A DNA stretch of 57,038 nt from positions 1-57,038 of the forward strand of contig DDXK01000102.1 of NCBI GenBank assembly GCA_002347185.1. The letters run 5' to 3'. The position numbers were made by a program, and so were the translations under genes. Of this stretch, positions 4,457 to 53,342 are shown piece after piece. The notes under the pieces were generated by a model. It did not search any database. It was not told where the DNA came from and worked only from the letters and a program-made list of their open reading frames with translations. This stretch comes from Desulfobulbaceae bacterium UBA2262 (lineage in GTDB: Bacteria > Desulfobacterota > Desulfobulbia > Desulfobulbales > Desulfurivibrionaceae). Position 1 is the stretch's first letter; the number at the start of each line of letters is the position of its first letter.

Positions 4457-6745
4457 TCAATCGCTTTCGGCAATCTTCTTCACATCGGCGATGAGGATGA
4501 CGTCCTCATTGCCCATGATGGTGTAGCCGGAAATCCCCTCGACCTGGCGGAGTTTTTTGTAGCCTTCGCCAAAACCCTTCGCGACGATCTTCTGGTGCGA
4601 AAGGATGTTGTCGACCATCAACCCCACGCCATGCTCCTTGCAGACAACGATGACTTTCTGGGCCACCTCGGTGATCGTTGAGGACGCCGAGGGATAAAAG
4701 AAGGTGTTGAGCTCAACAAGACGCAGGATCGCGTCATCATATGCGATACAGTTGCTTTTCGCAAGCAGCGGGATGATGTTTTCCGTCTCCAGCACCGTGG
4801 TGATGTCGTCGGAGGGAATGGCATAGGTCTCGCTCCCCCCCTTGACAATCATTGCGTCCATGGTGACCAGGGTCTTGGTAAGCGGGATGGTGAAGGAGAC
4901 GGTGGTTCCCTGGCCGGAGACCGAATCGAGCTGTATTCTGCCGTTGCATTCCTTGAGGCCGGAGAGCACCACATCCATGCCCACTCCGCGTCCGGAAACA
5001 TCGCTGATCTTTTCCGCCGAACTGAAGCCGGGCCTGAAGATGAGATTGATCAGGTCCCGATCGCTGAGCAGAGCGAGCTCCTCCTCGCTCAGGAAGGATT
5101 TCCGTCGGGCTACTTCCTTCATTTTTGCCGGATCGATGCCCTTGCCGTCATCGGCAATGGTGATGTAGACATTGTTTTCATCGGCCCGGGCCGCCAGGGT
5201 CAGGTTGCCCTGTTCCGGTTTTCCCGCCTTTCTGCGCGTGGACGGCGTCTCGATCCCGTGATCGAGGGAGTTGCGCAGGATGTGGACCAGGGGGTTTTCG
5301 ATCTTTTCGAGCAGATCCTTGTCGATGACCGTTTCCTCGCCCTCGATGGTGAATTTGACGTTTTTTTCCAGGGAGTTGGCGAGTTGCCGCACCACCTTGG
5401 GGAACCTCTGGAAGAGCGATTTCACCGGCACCCGCCGGATGCGCATGATATTGGTGTGCAGCTCTTCGAGTTGTTCGTCGAGGGAGTGGATGGTGGAGTC
5501 GAAGCGGGCAATGAGATTGAAATCCACATTGTGGCTTTCGAGCTGTTTCTTGAGGAAATTGAGCGAGTCGAGATTGATGTAGAGCCCACCCACCGAATTG
5601 GCGAAAGTGTCGAGCTTGGCCTGGTCGATGCGGATGGTTTTTGCCTGCTCCAGCCCCTTGCCTTCCTTGAGGTGCGCTTCCAGAGCGCGCTTGTTCTGGA
5701 TCTCCAGGGCTTTTTTCAGATCGGTTTCCTGGATGGTGCCCTGTTCGAGGAGCAGTTCGCCGATCTTCTTCTGTTTTTCAAGCACCGAGGCGATCTGATC
5801 CTCGGAGACAAGCTTCTGTTCCACCAGGATTTCGCCGAGCCGGGCGCTGCCGCCCCTGGGCTTAGCCTCGAAAGCGCCGATGACCGCATTGAGCAGCTTC
5901 CTGCAGATGCCGTTGTACTCGTCGCTGGCCACCATCAGGGCATCGTCGAGGAAGTTGCGCATCGACTCCAGTTCTTCAAGCTCTTTCGCAATCTTTTTGT
6001 TGCCCGAAAGCGCGGCGGCCACTTCGTCGTAAGCCTTGGCGAAGGAGAGGAGCTGCTCCTGGCTCAGCGCCCTTTTCTCCTGCAGTGCCTGGATGGCCAT
6101 GCCGAATTGGCCGATCTGGACACTGAAATCCTCCTTGCCGAGGAGGTAGCTGCACTCGGTCGAATAGGCGCTGGCGATCTCCTGGTCGCATTTGGCTGCC
6201 ACCAGCTTCTTGAGCTCGATGTTGGCTTTTTCGATCTGGTCGAGTAGCCCAGGGATCAGGGAGTGGCGATGGATGTTTTCGCCGAGGTCGATGAGGGAGT
6301 TGAGCAGGCCTTCGAAGGTGATCACGCTCTGGAGTGAGCCGGTGGCCACCGTTGGCTGCACCGCCTCGACCCGGGCGAGGAACTCCTTCTCATCCGGCCG
6401 AAAGGCGACATCCTGTGGGTTTTCCTGGGCCCGGTCCAGCATGCTCTGGAGATATTCGACGCCACTGAGGAGGATGTCGATGATCTCGCGGTTGACGGCA
6501 ATCTGGTTCTTGCGGCAGGCATCGAGAAGGTTTTCCAGCCGGTGGGAAAACTTGTTGATGTTGGTCAGGCCGAAAAAGCCGGAATTGCCCTTCAGGCTGT
6601 GGACCGGCCGGAAGATTTTGTTGATGATGTCGATATTGCCCGGTTCGTTTTCAAGGGCAATGAAGTCCGCCTCGATTCCCTGCAGGGAATCGTTGGACTC
6701 GTCAATAAAACCGCGGAGGGCGTCAAGATCGTTCTCTTCGGCCAT
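4457..6745 (-). CDS. cheA: CheA-like chemosensory histidine kinase (Hpt - long linker - HATPase - CheW-like)
   Basis: 762 aa; Hpt motif FRPVHSLKGNSGFFG, HATPase boxes (HILRNSLDHGIE, DDGKGID, GRGVGMDVV) and a C-terminal CheW-like domain. Confidence 0.85.
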   Translation of the reverse strand: MAEENDLDALRGFIDESNDSLQGIEADFIALENEPGNIDIINKIFRPVHSLKGNSGFFGLTNINKFSHRLENLLDACRKNQIAVNREIIDILLSGVEYLQSMLDRAQENPQDVAFRPDEKEFLARVEAVQPTVATGSLQSVITFEGLLNSLIDLGENIHRHSLIPGLLDQIEKANIELKKLVAAKCDQEIASAYSTECSYLLGKEDFSVQIGQFGMAIQALQEKRALSQEQLLSFAKAYDEVAAALSGNKKIAKELEELESMRNFLDDALMVASDEYNGICRKLLNAVIGAFEAKPRGGSARLGEILVEQKLVSEDQIASVLEKQKKIGELLLEQGTIQETDLKKALEIQNKRALEAHLKEGKGLEQAKTIRIDQAKLDTFANSVGGLYINLDSLNFLKKQLESHNVDFNLIARFDSTIHSLDEQLEELHTNIMRIRRVPVKSLFQRFPKVVRQLANSLEKNVKFTIEGEETVIDKDLLEKIENPLVHILRNSLDHGIETPSTRRKAGKPEQGNLTLAARADENNVYITIADDGKGIDPAKMKEVARRKSFLSEEELALLSDRDLINLIFRPGFSSAEKISDVSGRGVGMDVVLSGLKECNGRIQLDSVSGQGTTVSFTIPLTKTLVTMDAMIVKGGSETYAIPSDDITTVLETENIIPLLAKSNCIAYDDAILRLVELNTFFYPSASSTITEVAQKVIVVCKEHGVGLMVDNILSHQKIVAKGFGEGYKKLRQVEGISGYTIMGNEDVILIADVKKIAESD

Positions 6746-41487: not shown

Positions 41488-41895
41488 CTAGGCCTCCGCG
41501 CCAGGGAGGCGCTGCTGGTAGCAGGCGTGTTCGGGCACGATGCCGCGCACCAGCTGCATGCGCCCGCCTTCGGCCATGCGGCGCTCGCTCTTGCGGGACG
41601 GCGAGGCCTGGTAGAGCAGCTTGAAAAAAGAAGCCTTGCCGTAGGGCAGCGCCCCGCGCTCGCGGCACCAGGCGCGATAGTGGCTGTAGACCGTGTCCTT
41701 GCGGCAGATGGCAGATGCGGAGAGGCGGCAAGCCGAGGCGACAAAGGCCGCCACCTGGCGCACACCGCTGCTTGTGGCCGGGGCGCGGCCGGGGGCCGGC
41801 AGGGCCTGGGCGGCTTCCAGGCGGTCGAGCCGCTGCTCGAAGCGCTCCAGGACCCGGCCCACCGAATCCATGGTCTTGGCCAATCCCTCGGCCAT
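41488..41895 (-). CDS. hypothetical protein with P4-primase C-terminal-like motif
   Basis: 135 aa. The segment DTVYSHYRAWCRERGALPYGKASFFKLLYQ...GGRMQLVRGI resembles the Y..Y..WC...G......F...L.....R..G....Y.GI pattern at the C-terminus of D5/P4-type primases. Recognition by eye only. Confidence 0.35.
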   Translation of the reverse strand: MAEGLAKTMDSVGRVLERFEQRLDRLEAAQALPAPGRAPATSSGVRQVAAFVASACRLSASAICRKDTVYSHYRAWCRERGALPYGKASFFKLLYQASPSRKSERRMAEGGRMQLVRGIVPEHACYQQRLPGAEA

Positions 41896-41928
41896 CTGGA
41901 GCAGCAGGCGGGATTCGGGGGCGGCGAT

Positions 41929-42294
41929 CTACTCCGCCGCCGGGTGGGTGTAGGTGCCGGTGCGGCGGATGGCGGGGAGGACTTCGTGATTGACCCAGCG
42001 CTTGAACGCCTTGGCCTGCGGTTTGCGCGAAGTGTTGACCAGGGAGTATAGGCCAGACTCGTTGACGCCCCATACTTTCTGCACACCGCCAGGGGTGTTC
42101 AGTTGAATCGAACCCCTTTCGTCATCGTCCAGCCGACCCATCGCGTCCGAAATGTTACCTATCCCCAGGATGTCGCAGACATCCCTGGCCACCCACCAGG
42201 GCTCGCCATGCTCGTCCTTGATGATTCTGGCCGGCACGTCGCCGAAGAACAGATTGTGGTGCTCAACTACCTCGATCTCATGCTGCTTGTTCAT
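41929..42294 (-). CDS. BRO-N domain protein (antirepressor-like N-terminal DNA-binding domain only)
   Basis: 121 aa from ATG 42294; ...WWVARDVCDILGIGNISDAMGRLDDDE......GG.Q....VNESGLYSLV..SRKP.AK.F..WV..EVLP.IR.TG BRO-N signature. Confidence 0.8.
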   Translation of the reverse strand: MNKQHEIEVVEHHNLFFGDVPARIIKDEHGEPWWVARDVCDILGIGNISDAMGRLDDDERGSIQLNTPGGVQKVWGVNESGLYSLVNTSRKPQAKAFKRWVNHEVLPAIRRTGTYTHPAAE

Positions 42295-42450
42295 GGTACT
42301 CCTCCTGTTTTGGAATTTTCCCGCCCATGCGCTTCCAAACGCAAAAAGGGCGGAACCGTGCGGGTTGGAAGACCGGGGAGACAGGCAACCCGGCGAGCCC
42401 GAAGGCTCCCCGCACGGCCCGCCCAAAGGGGTTTGCCGTGCCGTGGACGC

Positions 42451-42533
42451 AAAAAAAACGCCGAACAAAAAGTGGCGGTGCGTCCGCCTGTCCCATTCTG
42501 GCTTCCAAACCCGGCCACGGATTTTGCCGTGGC
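42451..42533 (-). ncRNA. candidate small RNA or terminated leader upstream of the BRO-N operon
   Basis: Minus strand: TTGACA (42564..42569) - 18 nt - TACTCT (42540..42545). Then a 5' hairpin GCCACGG caaaat CCGTGGC (42514..42533), then GGCGG acgca CCGCC (42474..42488) followed by ACTTTTTGTTCGGCGTTTTTTTT. Confidence 0.3.
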
Positions 42534-42618
42534 ATGGGTAGAGTAGTCCGAATGGCGGACGTTTGTCAAATCTTTTTCGCCCCACTGGCCTGGACAAGGG
42601 CCATGGGGAGCGGTTATC

Positions 42619-43518
42619 ATGTCCGGCATGAGCAAGGCATCATTCAAAGTTTTTTATTGCGGGCCCGAGCTGGACAGCGGCCAGATGGACGTCAAGGAGC
42701 TGGCCCCGGCGCTGCTGGCCGCGGGGGCGGTGCTCGACGAGGCCAACCGCGTCCTGAACGGCAACCGCTCGTCCGTGAGCGTCAAAGTCAAGAAGTTCGA
42801 GGACGGCTCCTTCGGGGTATCCTTCGACGTCTGGCAATCACTCACCGCCCAGGCGGTATCCCTTTTCTCCGGCAACGAGGTGACGGCGGCGCTCAACATC
42901 ATCGCCGTTCTGGGCTTTGCCGGCGGCGGCGCGGCCGGGCTGGTCAAGCTGATCAAAATGTCCAAGGGCCGAAAGCCGCGCCGGGCAAAAACCCTGGACA
43001 ACGGCAACATCGAGCTCGACTTCGACGAGGGGCTGATCGAGGTGAGCAAGCAGGTTTGCGACCTTTATCTGGACATGAAGGTCCGGGTTGAGCTGCACAA
43101 CTTCTCTCTTCCCCTGGCCAGGCGAGGGGTGGACCGAATAGGCATCTATCATGGCCGCGAAATGGTCGAATCCATAACCAAGGACGAGGCGGCGTACTTC
43201 CTGCCGCCGGCGGCCGAGGACGACCTTCTTGACGAGCGGGAGATTACCGCCACCTATTTCATCCACTCCTTGAGCTTCAAGGACGACAACAAGTGGCGGT
43301 TCACCGACGGCGCGGTGACCTTTTTCGCGACAATCCAAGACCAGCTCTTCCTCGACAGAGTGAACCAAAACCTGGTTTCGTTCGCAAAGGGCGACATCAT
43401 GCGGGTGCGGATGCGGACCAAGACCTGGAACACCGCCGCCGGCCCCAGGAGCGAGTACGAGATCCTTGAGGTTCTCGAACACCGCAGCGCCGCTGTGCAA
43501 CTCCGCCTGCCTGTTTAG
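42619..43518 (+). CDS. orphan protein of unknown function, opposite strand to all neighbouring phage genes (moron candidate)
   Basis: 299 aa; very high GC3 (checked by hand), GGAG upstream; central hydrophobic stretch VTAALNIIAVLGFAGGGAAGLV; no family recognised; its stop overlaps the convergent mor stop by 4 nt. Confidence 0.75.
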   Translation: MSGMSKASFKVFYCGPELDSGQMDVKELAPALLAAGAVLDEANRVLNGNRSSVSVKVKKFEDGSFGVSFDVWQSLTAQAVSLFSGNEVTAALNIIAVLGFAGGGAAGLVKLIKMSKGRKPRRAKTLDNGNIELDFDEGLIEVSKQVCDLYLDMKVRVELHNFSLPLARRGVDRIGIYHGREMVESITKDEAAYFLPPAAEDDLLDEREITATYFIHSLSFKDDNKWRFTDGAVTFFATIQDQLFLDRVNQNLVSFAKGDIMRVRMRTKTWNTAAGPRSEYEILEVLEHRSAAVQLRLPV

Positions 43519-43853
43519 CCCCACAACCGCCCCTGCCGCTCGTCCGGCTCGGCCGAGCCGAGGATGTTCCAGATCTGCCGCTCGCCGAGCTTGTACTTGC
43601 GGCCCAGCTCGATGGCGGTAATGTCGCCCTGGTCGTAGTCGCGGCGGATACAGCGGTCCCGGTGGCGGCGCAGCCACTTGCCCACCCCGTAGATCCTGAT
43701 GGGGGTGCCGCCGAAAACCTGGGCTATGCGCAGGGCCACGGCCACCCCCACGATCTCGGCCAGCAGGCGCAGGTCGCCGGTCAACTCCTCGATCCCAGGC
43801 AGGGCGTCGTCGGGCAGCTCCACGACACCGAACTCGTTCACCTCGTCGCTCAT
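43515..43853 (-). CDS. mor: Mor-family transcriptional activator
   Basis: 112 aa from ATG 43853; ..LRIAQVFGGTPIRIYGVGKWLRRHRDRCIRRDYDQGDITAIELGRKYKLGERQIWNIL matches the Mor/C family pattern. Confidence 0.8.
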   Translation of the reverse strand: MSDEVNEFGVVELPDDALPGIEELTGDLRLLAEIVGVAVALRIAQVFGGTPIRIYGVGKWLRRHRDRCIRRDYDQGDITAIELGRKYKLGERQIWNILGSAEPDERQGRLWG

Positions 43854-44287
43854 CACTTCCCCTCCCTTGCCCTGCGCAGGCGCGCTTCCAGGTCGGTGAT
43901 GAGCACATGCAGGCTGGCGTGCTCCGTGAGCCACTCGAAGCGGTCCACCCCGAACTGCCTTTTGCAGCGGGCGTGGAGCTTGGCCATGTCGTAACCCAGG
44001 GCCGCCCACATGGCCAGCACCTTGCGCTGCTGGGCGGCGGACGGGCCGGGAGCGACGCGGATGAAGCCATCGTCGCCGGTGGGATTGCGGCGGGGCGCGG
44101 CCCTGCGGGTCTTGGGCTGCCAGCCCCTGGCCCGGAACTTGTTGAGCAGGACGGTGACCTGGCGCGGGGCGAGCTCCTTGGCGCTGGACACCCCGAAGTG
44201 CAGGTGCAGCATGTCCCGGTAGGCCTCGTCGGAAAGGCCCAGCTCCTTCTTGGCGATGTGGATCTTGGCGAGATCGCTCCTGGTCAT
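43853..44287 (-). CDS. gemA: GemA-like regulatory protein (Mu gp16, DUF1018-like)
   Basis: 144 aa from ATG 44287; MTRSDLAKIHIAKKELGLSDEAYRDMLHLHFGVSSAKELAPRQV..LL..F...GW. Confidence 0.8.
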   Translation of the reverse strand: MTRSDLAKIHIAKKELGLSDEAYRDMLHLHFGVSSAKELAPRQVTVLLNKFRARGWQPKTRRAAPRRNPTGDDGFIRVAPGPSAAQQRKVLAMWAALGYDMAKLHARCKRQFGVDRFEWLTEHASLHVLITDLEARLRRAREGK

Positions 44288-52572: not shown

Positions 52573-52757
52573 AAAACCGAATTCTGGTTTTTGCAATCTA
52601 AAATTCGGTTCCGAATTGGAAAAAGCAAAACGGAACCGAATTTCTATACCAGCACCATATTTGCACTGTTATATCGGATGGTTAAACAACTCGGAACCGC
52701 GCTGATAAAAATGCAACATTGGTGCCGAATTGAAAAAAACGAAAACGGAACCGGAAT
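52573..52757. promoter_or_regulatory. immunity/operator region with repeated CGGAACCGAAT half-sites
   Basis: Sites seen: AAAACCGAATTCTGGTTTT (52573..52591); perfect inverted repeat AATTCGG-TT-CCGAATT (52602..52617); AACGGAACCGAATTT (52629..52643); CGGAACCG (52692..52699); CCGAATT (52725..52731); AACGGAACCGGAAT (52744..52757), which abuts the repressor ATG. Confidence 0.65.
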
Positions 52758-53342
52758 ATGGATATAGCCGATCGCATAAAGCAAGTTCGCGGCGAGATGC
52801 GCCAGGTCGATTTTGCGACAAAAATCGATGCCCCAAAAAATACGGTCGGACGGTGGGAGCGGGGCGAGCAGGTGCCAGGTCATGACGATCTCTGCAATAT
52901 CCTTGACGCTTTCGCCGATATAGAGCCATTGTGGCTCTTATTGGGCGAAGGCCCGATGCGGCGCAAAGAGACCGTTCCCGCGCCCATGCCCTCCGCAGCG
53001 CCAAGTGTCCCGATAGCCGCAGCCACGGAAATACCGCTCCAGGCCGCGGCCCACGCCCATTTCGACGCCCTGGGCGCGGTGGAGGGCATGGGCCTGCTCA
53101 CCAAGATATACACCTCCGGCGATCAGGTATTCATCCGCGCCATCAACGCCAATCTGCTGGCCTTCTCGGACGCCATCGAAAACCGTGCCAGGGCCGAAAA
53201 CACCTTCAACGCCATAAAGGAGATGCGAGAGCAAATGGACGAAATGAAAGGAGAAATCAATGAGTTACGACAAGAGAACCTGGCCCTGCAGCGACGACTG
53301 CAAGACAAGGGCGATCAGGACAAAAAGCAGGCGGTGGGATAA
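52758..53342 (+). CDS. phage repressor (XRE-family HTH, C-terminal coiled coil)
   Basis: 194 aa; IKQVRGEMRQVDFATKIDAPKNTVGRWERGEQVPGHDDL HTH_3 motif; divergent from ner/A/B; no obvious SD. Confidence 0.8.
   Translation: MDIADRIKQVRGEMRQVDFATKIDAPKNTVGRWERGEQVPGHDDLCNILDAFADIEPLWLLLGEGPMRRKETVPAPMPSAAPSVPIAAATEIPLQAAAHAHFDALGAVEGMGLLTKIYTSGDQVFIRAINANLLAFSDAIENRARAENTFNAIKEMREQMDEMKGEINELRQENLALQRRLQDKGDQDKKQAVG

What the first reader, a model, noticed from the sequence alone, without database searches (positions are those of the whole stretch)
42619..43518. Orphan 299-aa gene on the opposite strand, converging on mor with a 4-bp stop-stop overlap
Almost every neighbouring phage gene is on the minus strand. 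This ORF is on the plus strand between the middle operon (gemA-mor) and the accessory/lysis genes.

Seen in sequence:
- Third-position GC is very high and there is a GGAG upstream, so it looks truly coding.
- I recognise no family. The layout is an ~85-aa N-domain, a hydrophobic stretch (VTAALNIIAVLGFAGGGAAGLV) and an ~170-aa C-domain.
- Its TAG (43516..43518) overlaps the TAA of mor (43515..43517), leaving no room for a terminator.
- A TGGACA-18 nt-TATCAT promoter-like element overlaps the first ATG. This would predict a leaderless mRNA starting at the second ATG (42628), as for lysogenic repressor transcripts.

Inference:
- Transcription of this gene in a lysogen would run antisense into mor/gemA.
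- It is a lysogeny-expressed moron and a candidate superinfection-exclusion or abortive-infection/defence effector.
- Its transcription may simultaneously damp the lytic middle operon.
Basis: partly seen in the sequence, partly recalled or inferred. Interest (0 to 1): 0.65.

Follow-up and report, generated by a model that had tools for sequence, protein, structure and literature searches.

The report
Prophage gene from untested anti-phage family
The "orphan" gene is real but not an orphan: it belongs to a large, catalogued and experimentally untested family of candidate single-gene anti-phage defence proteins (PADLOC PDC-S42) carried by prophages and other mobile elements, and it seems to be made from its own promoter as an mRNA with no leader.

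Summary
The ORF, its strand, its high third-position GC (0.83), the overlapping stop codons with mor and the TGGACA-18-TATCAT promoter-like site are all present.

"Orphan / no family" is wrong. The protein matches three family models end to end:
- PADLOC PDC-S42 (E 2.6e-95)
- NCBIfam LAPAL_fam (E 8.5e-75)
- PHROG 3243 (E 7e-65)

A profile search finds 5,676 clusters of relatives across many bacterial phyla and some archaeal MAGs.

Relatives sit in lysogeny and accessory positions:
- directly downstream of CI-type repressors
- next to integrases
- in other Mu-like phages
- in a satellite-like element
- beside an Hma system and a BglII restriction-modification pair
- as lone genes among housekeeping genes

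No partner gene is conserved, so the NCBIfam label "structural protein" is not supported.

The AlphaFold model (pLDDT 85) has ferredoxin-like N-terminal and middle modules, a glycine-rich hydrophobic helical hairpin that is not a clear membrane span, and a C-terminal SSB-like OB fold. No catalytic domain is recognisable.

Comparison with relatives puts the start at the second ATG (42628), 7 nt after the -10. Family-wide, a -10 hexamer abuts the start codon in 23 of 87 loci, against 4.6 expected.

Most likely this is a lysogen-expressed single-gene defence or exclusion candidate. Expression, phenotype and mechanism are untested. It is a new member of a known candidate family.

The parts
42591..42620 (+). 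Sigma-70-like promoter: -35 TGGACA (42591-96), 18-nt spacer, -10 TATCAT (42615-20). The -10 ends 7 nt before the probable start codon.
   Evidence: Only promoter-like hit in 2.4 kb, 10 of 12 matches. The closest relative has TTGTCA-17-TATCAT ending 6 nt before its ATG.
42605..42610 (+). GGGGAG, a possible Shine-Dalgarno sequence for the first ATG (42619). It would be used only if a longer, leadered transcript exists.
   Evidence: Sequence. The first ATG is not conserved in frame in the nearest relative.
42628..43518 (+). Probable coding sequence (296 aa, MSKASF...; 299 aa if read from 42619), a member of the PDC-S42 / LAPAL_fam / PHROG 3243 family.
   Evidence: Family profiles and most homologues begin at residue 4.
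42700..42714 (+). LAPAL motif (residues 28-32) in the long, most conserved helix of the N-terminal module.
   Evidence: Alignment A1 shows L28, A29, P30, A31 and L32 conserved in at least 90% of sequences. Helix 25-47 in the model.
42880..42954 (+). Glycine-rich hydrophobic segment (residues 88-112, VTAALNIIAVLGFAGGGAAGLVKLI), followed by the basic stretch KMSKGRKPRR.
   Evidence: Kyte-Doolittle 19-residue maximum is 1.97 here and at least 1.6 in 33 of 58 relatives. It is modelled as two short helices, 91-98 and 108-115, not one span.
43222..43485 (+). C-terminal OB fold (residues 202-289) carrying the invariant or near-invariant residues F220, K225, W226, D230, G231, D241, F244, F255, K257, D259 and H288.
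   Evidence: Foldseek best PDB matches are SSB-type OB folds (Rim1, S. coelicolor SSB, PolC OB, ExoVII, LysRS). These matches disappear when only residues 4-200 are searched. Conservation.
43515..43853 (-). Mor-family activator gene, convergent with the target. Its TAA (43515-17) overlaps the target's TAG (43516-18).
   Evidence: PHROG 836 'late transcriptional activator', E 1.1e-13. Sequence.
42474..42488 (-). First terminator-like hairpin (GGCGGACGCACCGCC followed by a T run) that minus-strand transcripts leaving mor would meet, about 130 nt beyond the target's promoter.
   Evidence: The hairpin sequence is conserved in the relative L015.

Best explanation
The ORF is a genuine accessory gene ('moron') of a Mu-like prophage and belongs to the PDC-S42 / LAPAL family.

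Most likely it is expressed in the lysogen from its own sigma-70-type promoter. The mRNA would be leaderless and begin at or next to the second ATG (42628). The protein would act alone as an anti-phage defence or superinfection-exclusion protein.

Proposed mechanism (inferred, not shown):
- The C-terminal SSB-like OB fold, with its conserved K/W/F/D surface, recognises a nucleic acid or protein made by an infecting phage, for example single-stranded DNA or replication intermediates.
- The conserved N-terminal ferredoxin-like module and its glycine-rich hydrophobic hairpin then deliver the effect. This could be oligomerisation or membrane insertion that aborts the infection.

The gene converges on the early operon with no terminator between them. 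On induction, early transcription should therefore run antisense across the gene and its promoter and shut it off. That would spare the prophage's own lytic cycle.
For: Shown:
- Coding signature.
- Full-length family hits: PADLOC PDC-S42 E 2.6e-95, NCBIfam score 251.8 against a cut-off of 60, PHROG 3243.
- PDC families are candidates picked because they are embedded in BREX, DISARM or type I R-M systems (paper 10.1101/2024.01.29.577857).
- Relatives lie in lysogeny and accessory slots. Two lambdoid phages carry the gene directly downstream of, and co-directional with, an S24 repressor. Listeria phage 188 has it in the repressor-to-integrase operon. It sits next to the integrase in phage A2, phage PMBT6 and an Acetobacter element. 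It occupies the same slot in two other Mu-like phages.
- Other relatives lie beside an Hma system (SNF2 helicase, DUF1156, DUF499) and beside a BglII R-M pair.
- No partner gene is conserved in 38 species genomes.
- GC is lower (0.61) than in core phage genes (0.66-0.70).
- Confident model with an OB fold.
- Promoter abutting the start. A -10 lies 4-9 nt upstream of the start in 23 of 87 loci against 4.6 expected, and a full -35/-10 in 12 of 88 against 1.2.
- No terminator between the gene and mor. The first minus-strand terminator-like site lies beyond the gene's promoter.
Against: - No expression data exist. Only DNA metagenome runs hold the sequence.
- No paper names or tests PDC-S42, and the source paper calls these candidates untested.
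- In a crude survey, few immediate neighbours were recognised defence genes: a retron RT, PD-T4-6 and mad6 headed the PADLOC list, which shows only the top matches. Many neighbours were housekeeping genes.
- No catalytic or pore-forming domain is recognisable.
- The hydrophobic hairpin is modelled as packed inside a compact N-terminal half (pTM 0.82), not as a membrane helix.
- In one Mu-like relative the gene is on the same strand as the phage genes, so convergent silencing is not general.
- A GGGGAG precedes the first ATG, so a leadered transcript is possible.
Confidence: 0.45

Rival explanations
1. It is an accessory gene that serves the phage or element in some way other than defence. It could be an OB-fold nucleic-acid-binding factor for replication, transposition or lysogeny control. 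It could also be an anti-defence protein that binds or hides a nucleic-acid signal.
For: - The only recognisable fold is an SSB-like OB fold, with no effector domain.
- In the Mu-like relative L004 it lies on the phage's own strand at the end of the early region, next to a DCD gene.
- Phage accessory slots also hold counter-defence genes. An AcrIF11-like gene lies about 7 kb away in L010.
- Few neighbours are known defence genes.
Against: - It occurs as a lone gene between housekeeping genes and beside R-M or Hma systems, outside any phage.
- It sits downstream of repressors in lysogeny operons, where genes expressed in the lysogen lie.
- PADLOC selected the family because it is embedded in defence systems.
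Confidence: 0.3
2. It is a toxic or addiction-type gene that stabilises the mobile element. It would be a toxin kept in check by transcription-level or RNA-level control, without a specific anti-phage role.
For: - It is a solitary, self-promoted, widely transferred gene with no conserved protein partner.
- It has a hydrophobic hairpin.
- It converges on and overlaps a neighbouring transcription unit.
- A small structured-RNA-like unit lies in the divergent upstream region.
Against: - No similarity to any known toxin family.
- The upstream RNA-like unit does not overlap a leaderless mRNA starting at 42628.
- Many copies sit as lone chromosomal genes with no visible antidote.
Confidence: 0.12
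3. It is a phage structural (virion) protein, as the NCBIfam name suggests.
For: NCBIfam NF053583 is titled 'LAPAL motif-containing putative phage structural protein'. Many copies are in prophages.
Against: - It is never found inside head or tail gene blocks in the loci examined.
- It lies in lysogeny modules, beside integrases or repressors, in a satellite-like element and in phage-free chromosomal sites.
- Here it is on the strand opposite to all structural genes.
Confidence: 0.03

Closest known systems
PADLOC phage defence candidate PDC-S42 (also NCBIfam NF053583 LAPAL_fam and PHROG 3243)
   Same: Full-length sequence membership, about 300 aa, a single gene, the LAPAL motif and the conserved FKEDNKWRxxDG motif.
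   Different: Nothing at sequence level. This copy sits in a Mu-like prophage rather than embedded in a BREX, DISARM or R-M system. The family has no tested function.
Lambda RexAB (prophage exclusion genes co-transcribed with cI from PRM as a leaderless mRNA; from my knowledge)
   Same: - Prophage-borne, and expected to be expressed in the lysogen.
- Lambdoid relatives carry the gene directly downstream of the CI-type repressor.
- A leaderless-type promoter arrangement.
   Different: - One gene, not two.
- No sequence or fold similarity was detected.
- No four-helix membrane channel partner.
- Here it has its own promoter, far from the repressor.
BstA (single-gene prophage abortive-infection protein next to the repressor locus in Salmonella phage BTP1; from my knowledge)
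   Same: About 300 aa, a single gene, located in the lysogeny module of a prophage, with a nucleic-acid-binding domain. The carrier prophage needs some way to avoid self-targeting.
   Different: No KilA-N or anti-repressor domain (no Pfam hit). It has a C-terminal OB fold instead. No homology.
Bacterial and mitochondrial SSB-type OB folds (Rim1 6cqm, S. coelicolor SSB 4dam)
   Same: The topology of the C-terminal 90 residues (strand-strand-strand-helix-strand-strand), with conserved aromatic and basic residues.
   Different: Foldseek E-values are only about 2e-3. There is no Pfam SSB hit and no acidic C-terminal tail. The fold is fused to a 200-residue N-terminal unit of unknown function.
DUF6575-containing phage protein (best BFVD fold match). 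DUF6575 is listed among new defence domains by Vassallo et al. 2022 (PMC9519451).
   Same: Foldseek matches the whole length: E 1e-9 over 301 columns.
   Different: TM-score is only 0.39-0.45. No Pfam DUF6575 hit in any of 58 family members. I could not establish which part of the target is DUF6575. This is a lead only.

Membership tests
PADLOC PDC-S42 | Match to the family HMM over its full length | tested here: met
   PDLC05015: E 2.6e-95, residues 4-298 against profile positions 1-299 of 302.
PADLOC PDC-S42 | Single-gene system (no obligatory partner) | tested here: met
   No family recurs among 150 flanking ORFs from 38 species genomes. Contexts are heterogeneous.
PADLOC PDC-S42 | Embedded in or adjacent to known defence systems (the basis of the PDC call) | tested here: inconclusive
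   Not the case for this locus, which is inside a prophage. It holds for the relatives L012/L013 (Hma) and L016/L017 (BglII R-M). The crude survey recognised few defence neighbours.
PADLOC PDC-S42 | Demonstrated anti-phage activity | not testable with these tools
   The source paper calls the 145 PDC systems untested. No paper names PDC-S42.
NCBIfam NF053583 LAPAL_fam | Score above the curated cut-off and presence of the LAPAL motif | tested here: met
   251.8 bits against a cut-off of 60. LAPAL at residues 28-32, nt 42700-42714.
NCBIfam NF053583 LAPAL_fam | Being a phage structural protein (as named) | tested here: not met
   Gene positions are in lysogeny, accessory or chromosomal sites, never within virion modules. 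This is indirect evidence; no proteomics.
Leaderless mRNA gene | A -10 element a few nt upstream of the start codon, no usable SD for that start, and the arrangement conserved in relatives | tested here: met
   TATCAT ends 7 nt before ATG 42628. The same holds in L014/L015, where the first ATG is out of frame. Family-wide, 23 of 87 loci against 4.6 expected.
Leaderless mRNA gene | Mapped transcription start at the start codon | not testable with these tools
   No RNA runs hold the sequence.
Lambda RexAB-like exclusion | Two-gene sensor plus membrane channel, with homology to RexA/RexB | tested here: not met
   It is a single gene, with no hit to any named PADLOC, Pfam or PHROG exclusion family. 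Only the genomic position is analogous.
BstA-like Abi | N-terminal KilA-N / anti-repressor-type DNA-binding domain | tested here: not met
   No Pfam hit at E up to 1. The N-terminal half has a ferredoxin-like fold.
SSB family | Sequence match to SSB models | tested here: not met
   No Pfam or PDB sequence hit. Only fold-level similarity: E 2.4e-3, target TM-score 0.63.
Integral membrane protein | A conserved membrane-spanning hydrophobic helix of about 19 or more residues | tested here: inconclusive
   Kyte-Doolittle 19-residue maximum is at least 1.6 in 33 of 58 members. Others have K/E/D inside the segment. AlphaFold models two short helices packed in a compact unit.

The most novel reading that the evidence does not exclude
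The PDC-S42/LAPAL family is a self-contained, universally portable immunity cassette. Its promoter fires directly at the start codon, giving a leaderless mRNA that bacteria, CPR bacteria and archaea can all translate. The product is a single OB-fold sensor-effector protein that aborts infection through a so far undescribed mechanism. In Mu-like prophages it is wired convergently to the early operon, so that induction silences it.
Probability: 0.2. Interest if true: 0.65.

Novelty: new member of a known kind. Interest (0 to 1): 0.42.

Why it matters
The family is large (5,676 clusters at 50% identity) and is spread over many bacterial phyla and into archaeal MAGs. Three databases catalogue it, and it has never been tested.

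This locus and its relatives support it as a lysogeny-module accessory gene rather than a virion part. The work also yields a foldable model with an OB fold and a set of invariant residues to mutate. The unusual promoter-at-the-start-codon arrangement could explain why the gene moves so widely.

If it proves to be a defence gene, it would add a single-gene system with no recognisable enzymatic effector. If not, the PADLOC and NCBIfam labels need correcting.

Tried and rejected
- Pfam on the protein, on 58 relatives and on 9 longer relatives found no credible domain and no fusion. The only signal was a weak DUF7946 hit in 12 of 58 (best E 0.0056).
- A profile search against PDB sequences found nothing.
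- Foldseek on residues 4-200 alone gave only generic ferredoxin-like matches, best E 0.011.
- Literature searches for PDC-S42, LAPAL motif, NF053583 and phrog_3243 found no paper on the family. The PDC assignment table in the source preprint is truncated where S42 would be.
- I tried to identify which Vassallo et al. system holds DUF6575 so I could compare sequences. It is not in the supplement text held.
- RNA-seq evidence is unavailable. Only four DNA metagenome runs were listed, and only one holds nearly all of the sequence.
- The plasmid collection has only 6 hits, mostly on megaplasmids or chromids. This is not a plasmid gene.
- The repressor-operator core CGGAACCG is not near this promoter. 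Its nearest copy is at 42351, and window-wide there are 6 matches against 3.7 expected.
- A terminator after the stop was rejected. The fold z-score is -1.8 with no U run.
- The downstream gene in the nearest relative is not a Mor homologue. What is conserved is the slot at the end of the GemA-containing operon, not convergence on mor itself.

Full report
**Observation**

The ORF 42619..43518 (+) exists and encodes 299 aa.
- Its TAG (43516-18) and the TAA of the convergent Mor-family gene (43515-17, minus strand) both lie within the four bases TTAG and share two of them.
- GC by codon position is 0.615/0.385/0.831. This is the same signature as mor, the GemA-like gene, the endolysin and the transposase gene. 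The overlapping 410-aa antisense ORF and a +1 ORF have the pattern expected of shadow frames.
- The consensus scan finds exactly one sigma-70-like site in 41800-44200, against 0.4 expected. It is TGGACA (42591-96), 18 nt, TATCAT (42615-20).
- No terminator-like site follows the stop on the + strand. The 121 nt around the stop fold no better than shuffles (z = -1.8) and have no U run.
- PHROG hits confirm a Mu-like setting. These are a Mor/C-type activator, phrog_286 (the GemA-like gene), a BRO-N anti-repressor-like gene, an endolysin, a DUF3164-like early protein and a repressor on the + strand at 52758.

In phage Mu, gemA-mor is the end of the early operon rather than the middle operon (my knowledge).

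**Not an orphan**

The protein matches three curated or semi-curated families from end to end:
- PADLOC PDC-S42 (PDLC05015, E 2.6e-95)
- NCBIfam NF053583 'LAPAL motif-containing putative phage structural protein' (251.8 bits, cut-off 60)
- PHROG 3243, function unknown (E 7e-65)

Pfam has nothing.

A word-indexed search found 92 homologues at 31-67% identity. A profile of 58 of them found 5,676 clusters at E up to 1e-3, of which 2,000 are at E up to 1e-30. Pattern scanning of one genome per species confirmed 390 loci. They fall in Alpha-, Beta-, Gamma- and Deltaproteobacteria, Nitrospinota, Anaerolineales, Melainabacteria, several CPR phyla and a Methanoregula MAG. Cultured phages of Lactobacillus (A2), Listeria (vB_LmoS_188) and Bifidobacterium (PMBT6) also carry it.

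PDC systems are 145 untested candidates chosen because they are embedded in BREX, DISARM or type I R-M loci (bioRxiv 10.1101/2024.01.29.577857). No paper in the library names PDC-S42.

**Where relatives sit**

| Locus | Position of the relative |
|---|---|
| Phage A2 (ORF19) | between endolysin and integrase |
| Listeria phage 188 (ORF27) | last gene before the integrase in the repressor-ImmA-...-integrase operon |
| Phage PMBT6 | beside the integrase |
| Two lambdoid contigs (L010, L011) | directly downstream of, and co-directional with, the S24 (CI-type) repressor, the position of rexAB in lambda |
| L008 | next to an HTH_3 repressor pair |
| Acetobacter senegalensis (L006) | beside the integrase of a primase-bearing integrative element |
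| Mu-like phage L004/L005 | same slot, after the early region and before lysis, but on the phage's own strand and next to a DCD gene |
| L014/L015, closest relative (67% identity) | Mu-like phage, on the opposite strand, converging on the GemA-containing operon as here |
| L012/L013 | immediately upstream of an SNF2-helicase / DUF1156 / DUF499 (Hma-type) system |
| L016/L017 | beside a BglII endonuclease, an MT-A70 methylase and a resolvase |
| P0041 | lone gene with a divergent HTH_3 gene between recJ and bipA |
| L009 | among IS elements |

I also made a crude survey of the two ORFs on each side of the gene in 38 species genomes.
- No partner gene recurs.
- A few mobile-element genes appear: 3 integrases, 2 S24 repressors, Mu F and portal genes, and IS1595.
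- The named defence hits heading the PADLOC list are a retron RT, PD-T4-6 and mad6. The list shows only the top matches.
- Many neighbours are housekeeping genes.

The gene is therefore autonomous, horizontally mobile cargo, often in lysogeny modules, and never in virion modules. The NCBIfam label 'structural' is not supported. The defence association is real in some loci but not overwhelming.

In the window the gene (GC 0.61), the BRO-N gene (0.60) and the repressor gene (0.58) are less GC-rich than the core phage genes (0.66-0.70).

**Start codon and promoter**

- The PADLOC profile begins at residue 4. Most homologues start with M-S-K/x... aligned to the second ATG.
- In L014/L015 the sequence TATCATGCCGACATG keeps the TATCAT. 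Its embedded ATG is 8 nt from the real start, so it is out of frame. A TTGTCA lies 17 nt upstream.
- The hexamer is therefore conserved as DNA, not as a codon, and the true start is the second ATG (42628). It lies 7 nt after the -10, the geometry of a leaderless mRNA.
- I chose start codons by alignment to the family N-terminus, blind to upstream sequence. On that basis 23 of 87 non-redundant loci have TANNNT ending 4-9 nt before the start. The expectation from all ATGs in the same loci is 4.6.
- For hexamers matching TATAAT in at least 5 of 6 positions, the count is 11 against 1.1 expected.
- A -35 plus -10 scoring at least 8 of 12 is present in 12 of 88 loci against 1.2 expected.
- All but one of the -10-bearing loci lack a Shine-Dalgarno sequence, whereas the Gram-positive phage copies have GGAGG.

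Caveats:
- The loci are related, so they are not independent.
- Some starts may be mis-assigned.
- In the window a GGGGAG 8 nt before the first ATG could serve a longer transcript.

**Structure**

AlphaFold with the 58-sequence alignment gives pLDDT 85 and pTM 0.69. Its parts are:
- a strand-helix-strand-strand N module (5-73), with LAPAL in its long helix
- three short helices (76-115) that include the hydrophobic glycine-rich stretch 88-112
- an alpha/beta middle module (122-194)
- a C-terminal strand-strand-strand-helix-strand-strand barrel (202-289)

The best PDB matches are SSB-type OB folds:
- Rim1 6cqm, E 2.4e-3, target TM-score 0.63
- S. coelicolor SSB 4dam
- the PolC OB domain
- ExoVII
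- the LysRS anticodon-binding domain

These matches vanish when only residues 4-200 are modelled (pLDDT 83, pTM 0.82) and searched. That search leaves only generic ferredoxin-like matches at E 0.011 or higher. So the OB fold is the C-terminal domain, and the N-terminal 200 residues form one compact unit with no recognisable enzyme fold.

Most invariant or near-invariant residues lie in the OB domain. They are F220, K225, W226, D230, G231, D241, F244, F255, K257, D259 and H288. The rest lie in the LAPAL helix.

The hydrophobic segment reaches the classical threshold (Kyte-Doolittle 19-residue mean of at least 1.6) in 33 of 58 members. Others carry K/E/D inside it, and AlphaFold does not model a single span. 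A constitutive transmembrane helix is therefore unlikely, although a conditionally exposed hairpin is possible.

In the viral structure library the whole protein matches uncharacterised phage proteins. The best is annotated as DUF6575-containing (E 1e-9, TM-score 0.39-0.45). Vassallo et al. list DUF6575 among domains newly linked to defence (PMC9519451). No family member hits that Pfam model, so this is only a lead.

**Interpretation**

Shown:
- It is a real gene and a member of PDC-S42/LAPAL.
- It is autonomous accessory cargo that favours lysogeny-module positions.
- It has an OB fold and no partner gene.
- Its promoter abuts the start codon.

Inferred:
- Expression in the lysogen.
- An anti-phage role.
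- Sensing through the OB fold, with an effect delivered by the N-terminal unit and hairpin.

On antisense interplay, the first minus-strand terminator-like site after mor is at 42488-42474. That is beyond the whole gene and its promoter, and the hairpin is conserved in L015. Early-operon transcription on induction should therefore sweep antisense across this gene. Neither direction has been tested, and in L004 the gene is co-directional with the phage genes.

**Verdict**

The gene is a new member of a catalogued but functionally untested candidate defence family. Interest is moderate. It rests mainly on the size of the uncharacterised family, the OB-fold-only architecture and the family-wide leaderless-type promoter arrangement.

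Noticed in passing
window 42472-42545 (minus strand) versus L015 1-75: The terminator-like hairpin GGCGGACGCACCGCC is conserved in the 67%-identity relative. A second hairpin changes on both sides of its stem: CCACGG...CCGTGG here, CACTGG...CCAGTG in L015. This fits a structured RNA upstream of the BRO-N gene, the subject of another first-stage note.
   Followed up: partly
window 43546-43559: A perfect 14-nt palindrome, GGCTCGGCCGAGCC, lies inside the 3' end of mor, 28 nt past the target's stop. No T or U run follows on either strand, so it is not an intrinsic terminator. It could be a pause or binding site.
   Followed up: partly
L004 7278-7949 and L005 2646-3302: In another Mu-like phage the gene immediately upstream of the PDC-S42 relative is a DCD-family (deoxycytidine deaminase-like, PF22769) gene. 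This Mu-like accessory slot may collect nucleotide-manipulating or defence-type cargo.
   Followed up: no
window 41929-42294; L012 1081-1479; L017 1431-1622; L011 10312-10986: BRO-N, ORF6N or pRha-type anti-repressor-like genes recur near family members in unrelated elements. This could be chance in phage accessory regions or a loose association.
   Followed up: no
L040 (Methanoregula MAG) about 5980-6006; L012 (contig binned as Methanoperedens): Family members occur on contigs assigned to archaea. In L040 a TATA-box-like TTATAAAT lies about 20-27 nt before the ATG and there is no SD, as expected for an archaeal leaderless gene. The binning of these contigs was not checked.
   Followed up: no
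window 42351-42358 and 52606-52753: CGGAACCG occurs four times in the immunity region and once 57-64 nt upstream of the BRO-N start. Window-wide there are 6 matches against 3.7 expected. The clustering is suggestive, but the count alone is not significant.
   Followed up: partly
window 41929-43518 and 52758-53342: The three putative accessory or lysogeny genes (the target, BRO-N and the repressor) have GC of 0.58-0.61 against 0.66-0.70 for core phage genes. This suggests separate acquisition.
   Followed up: partly
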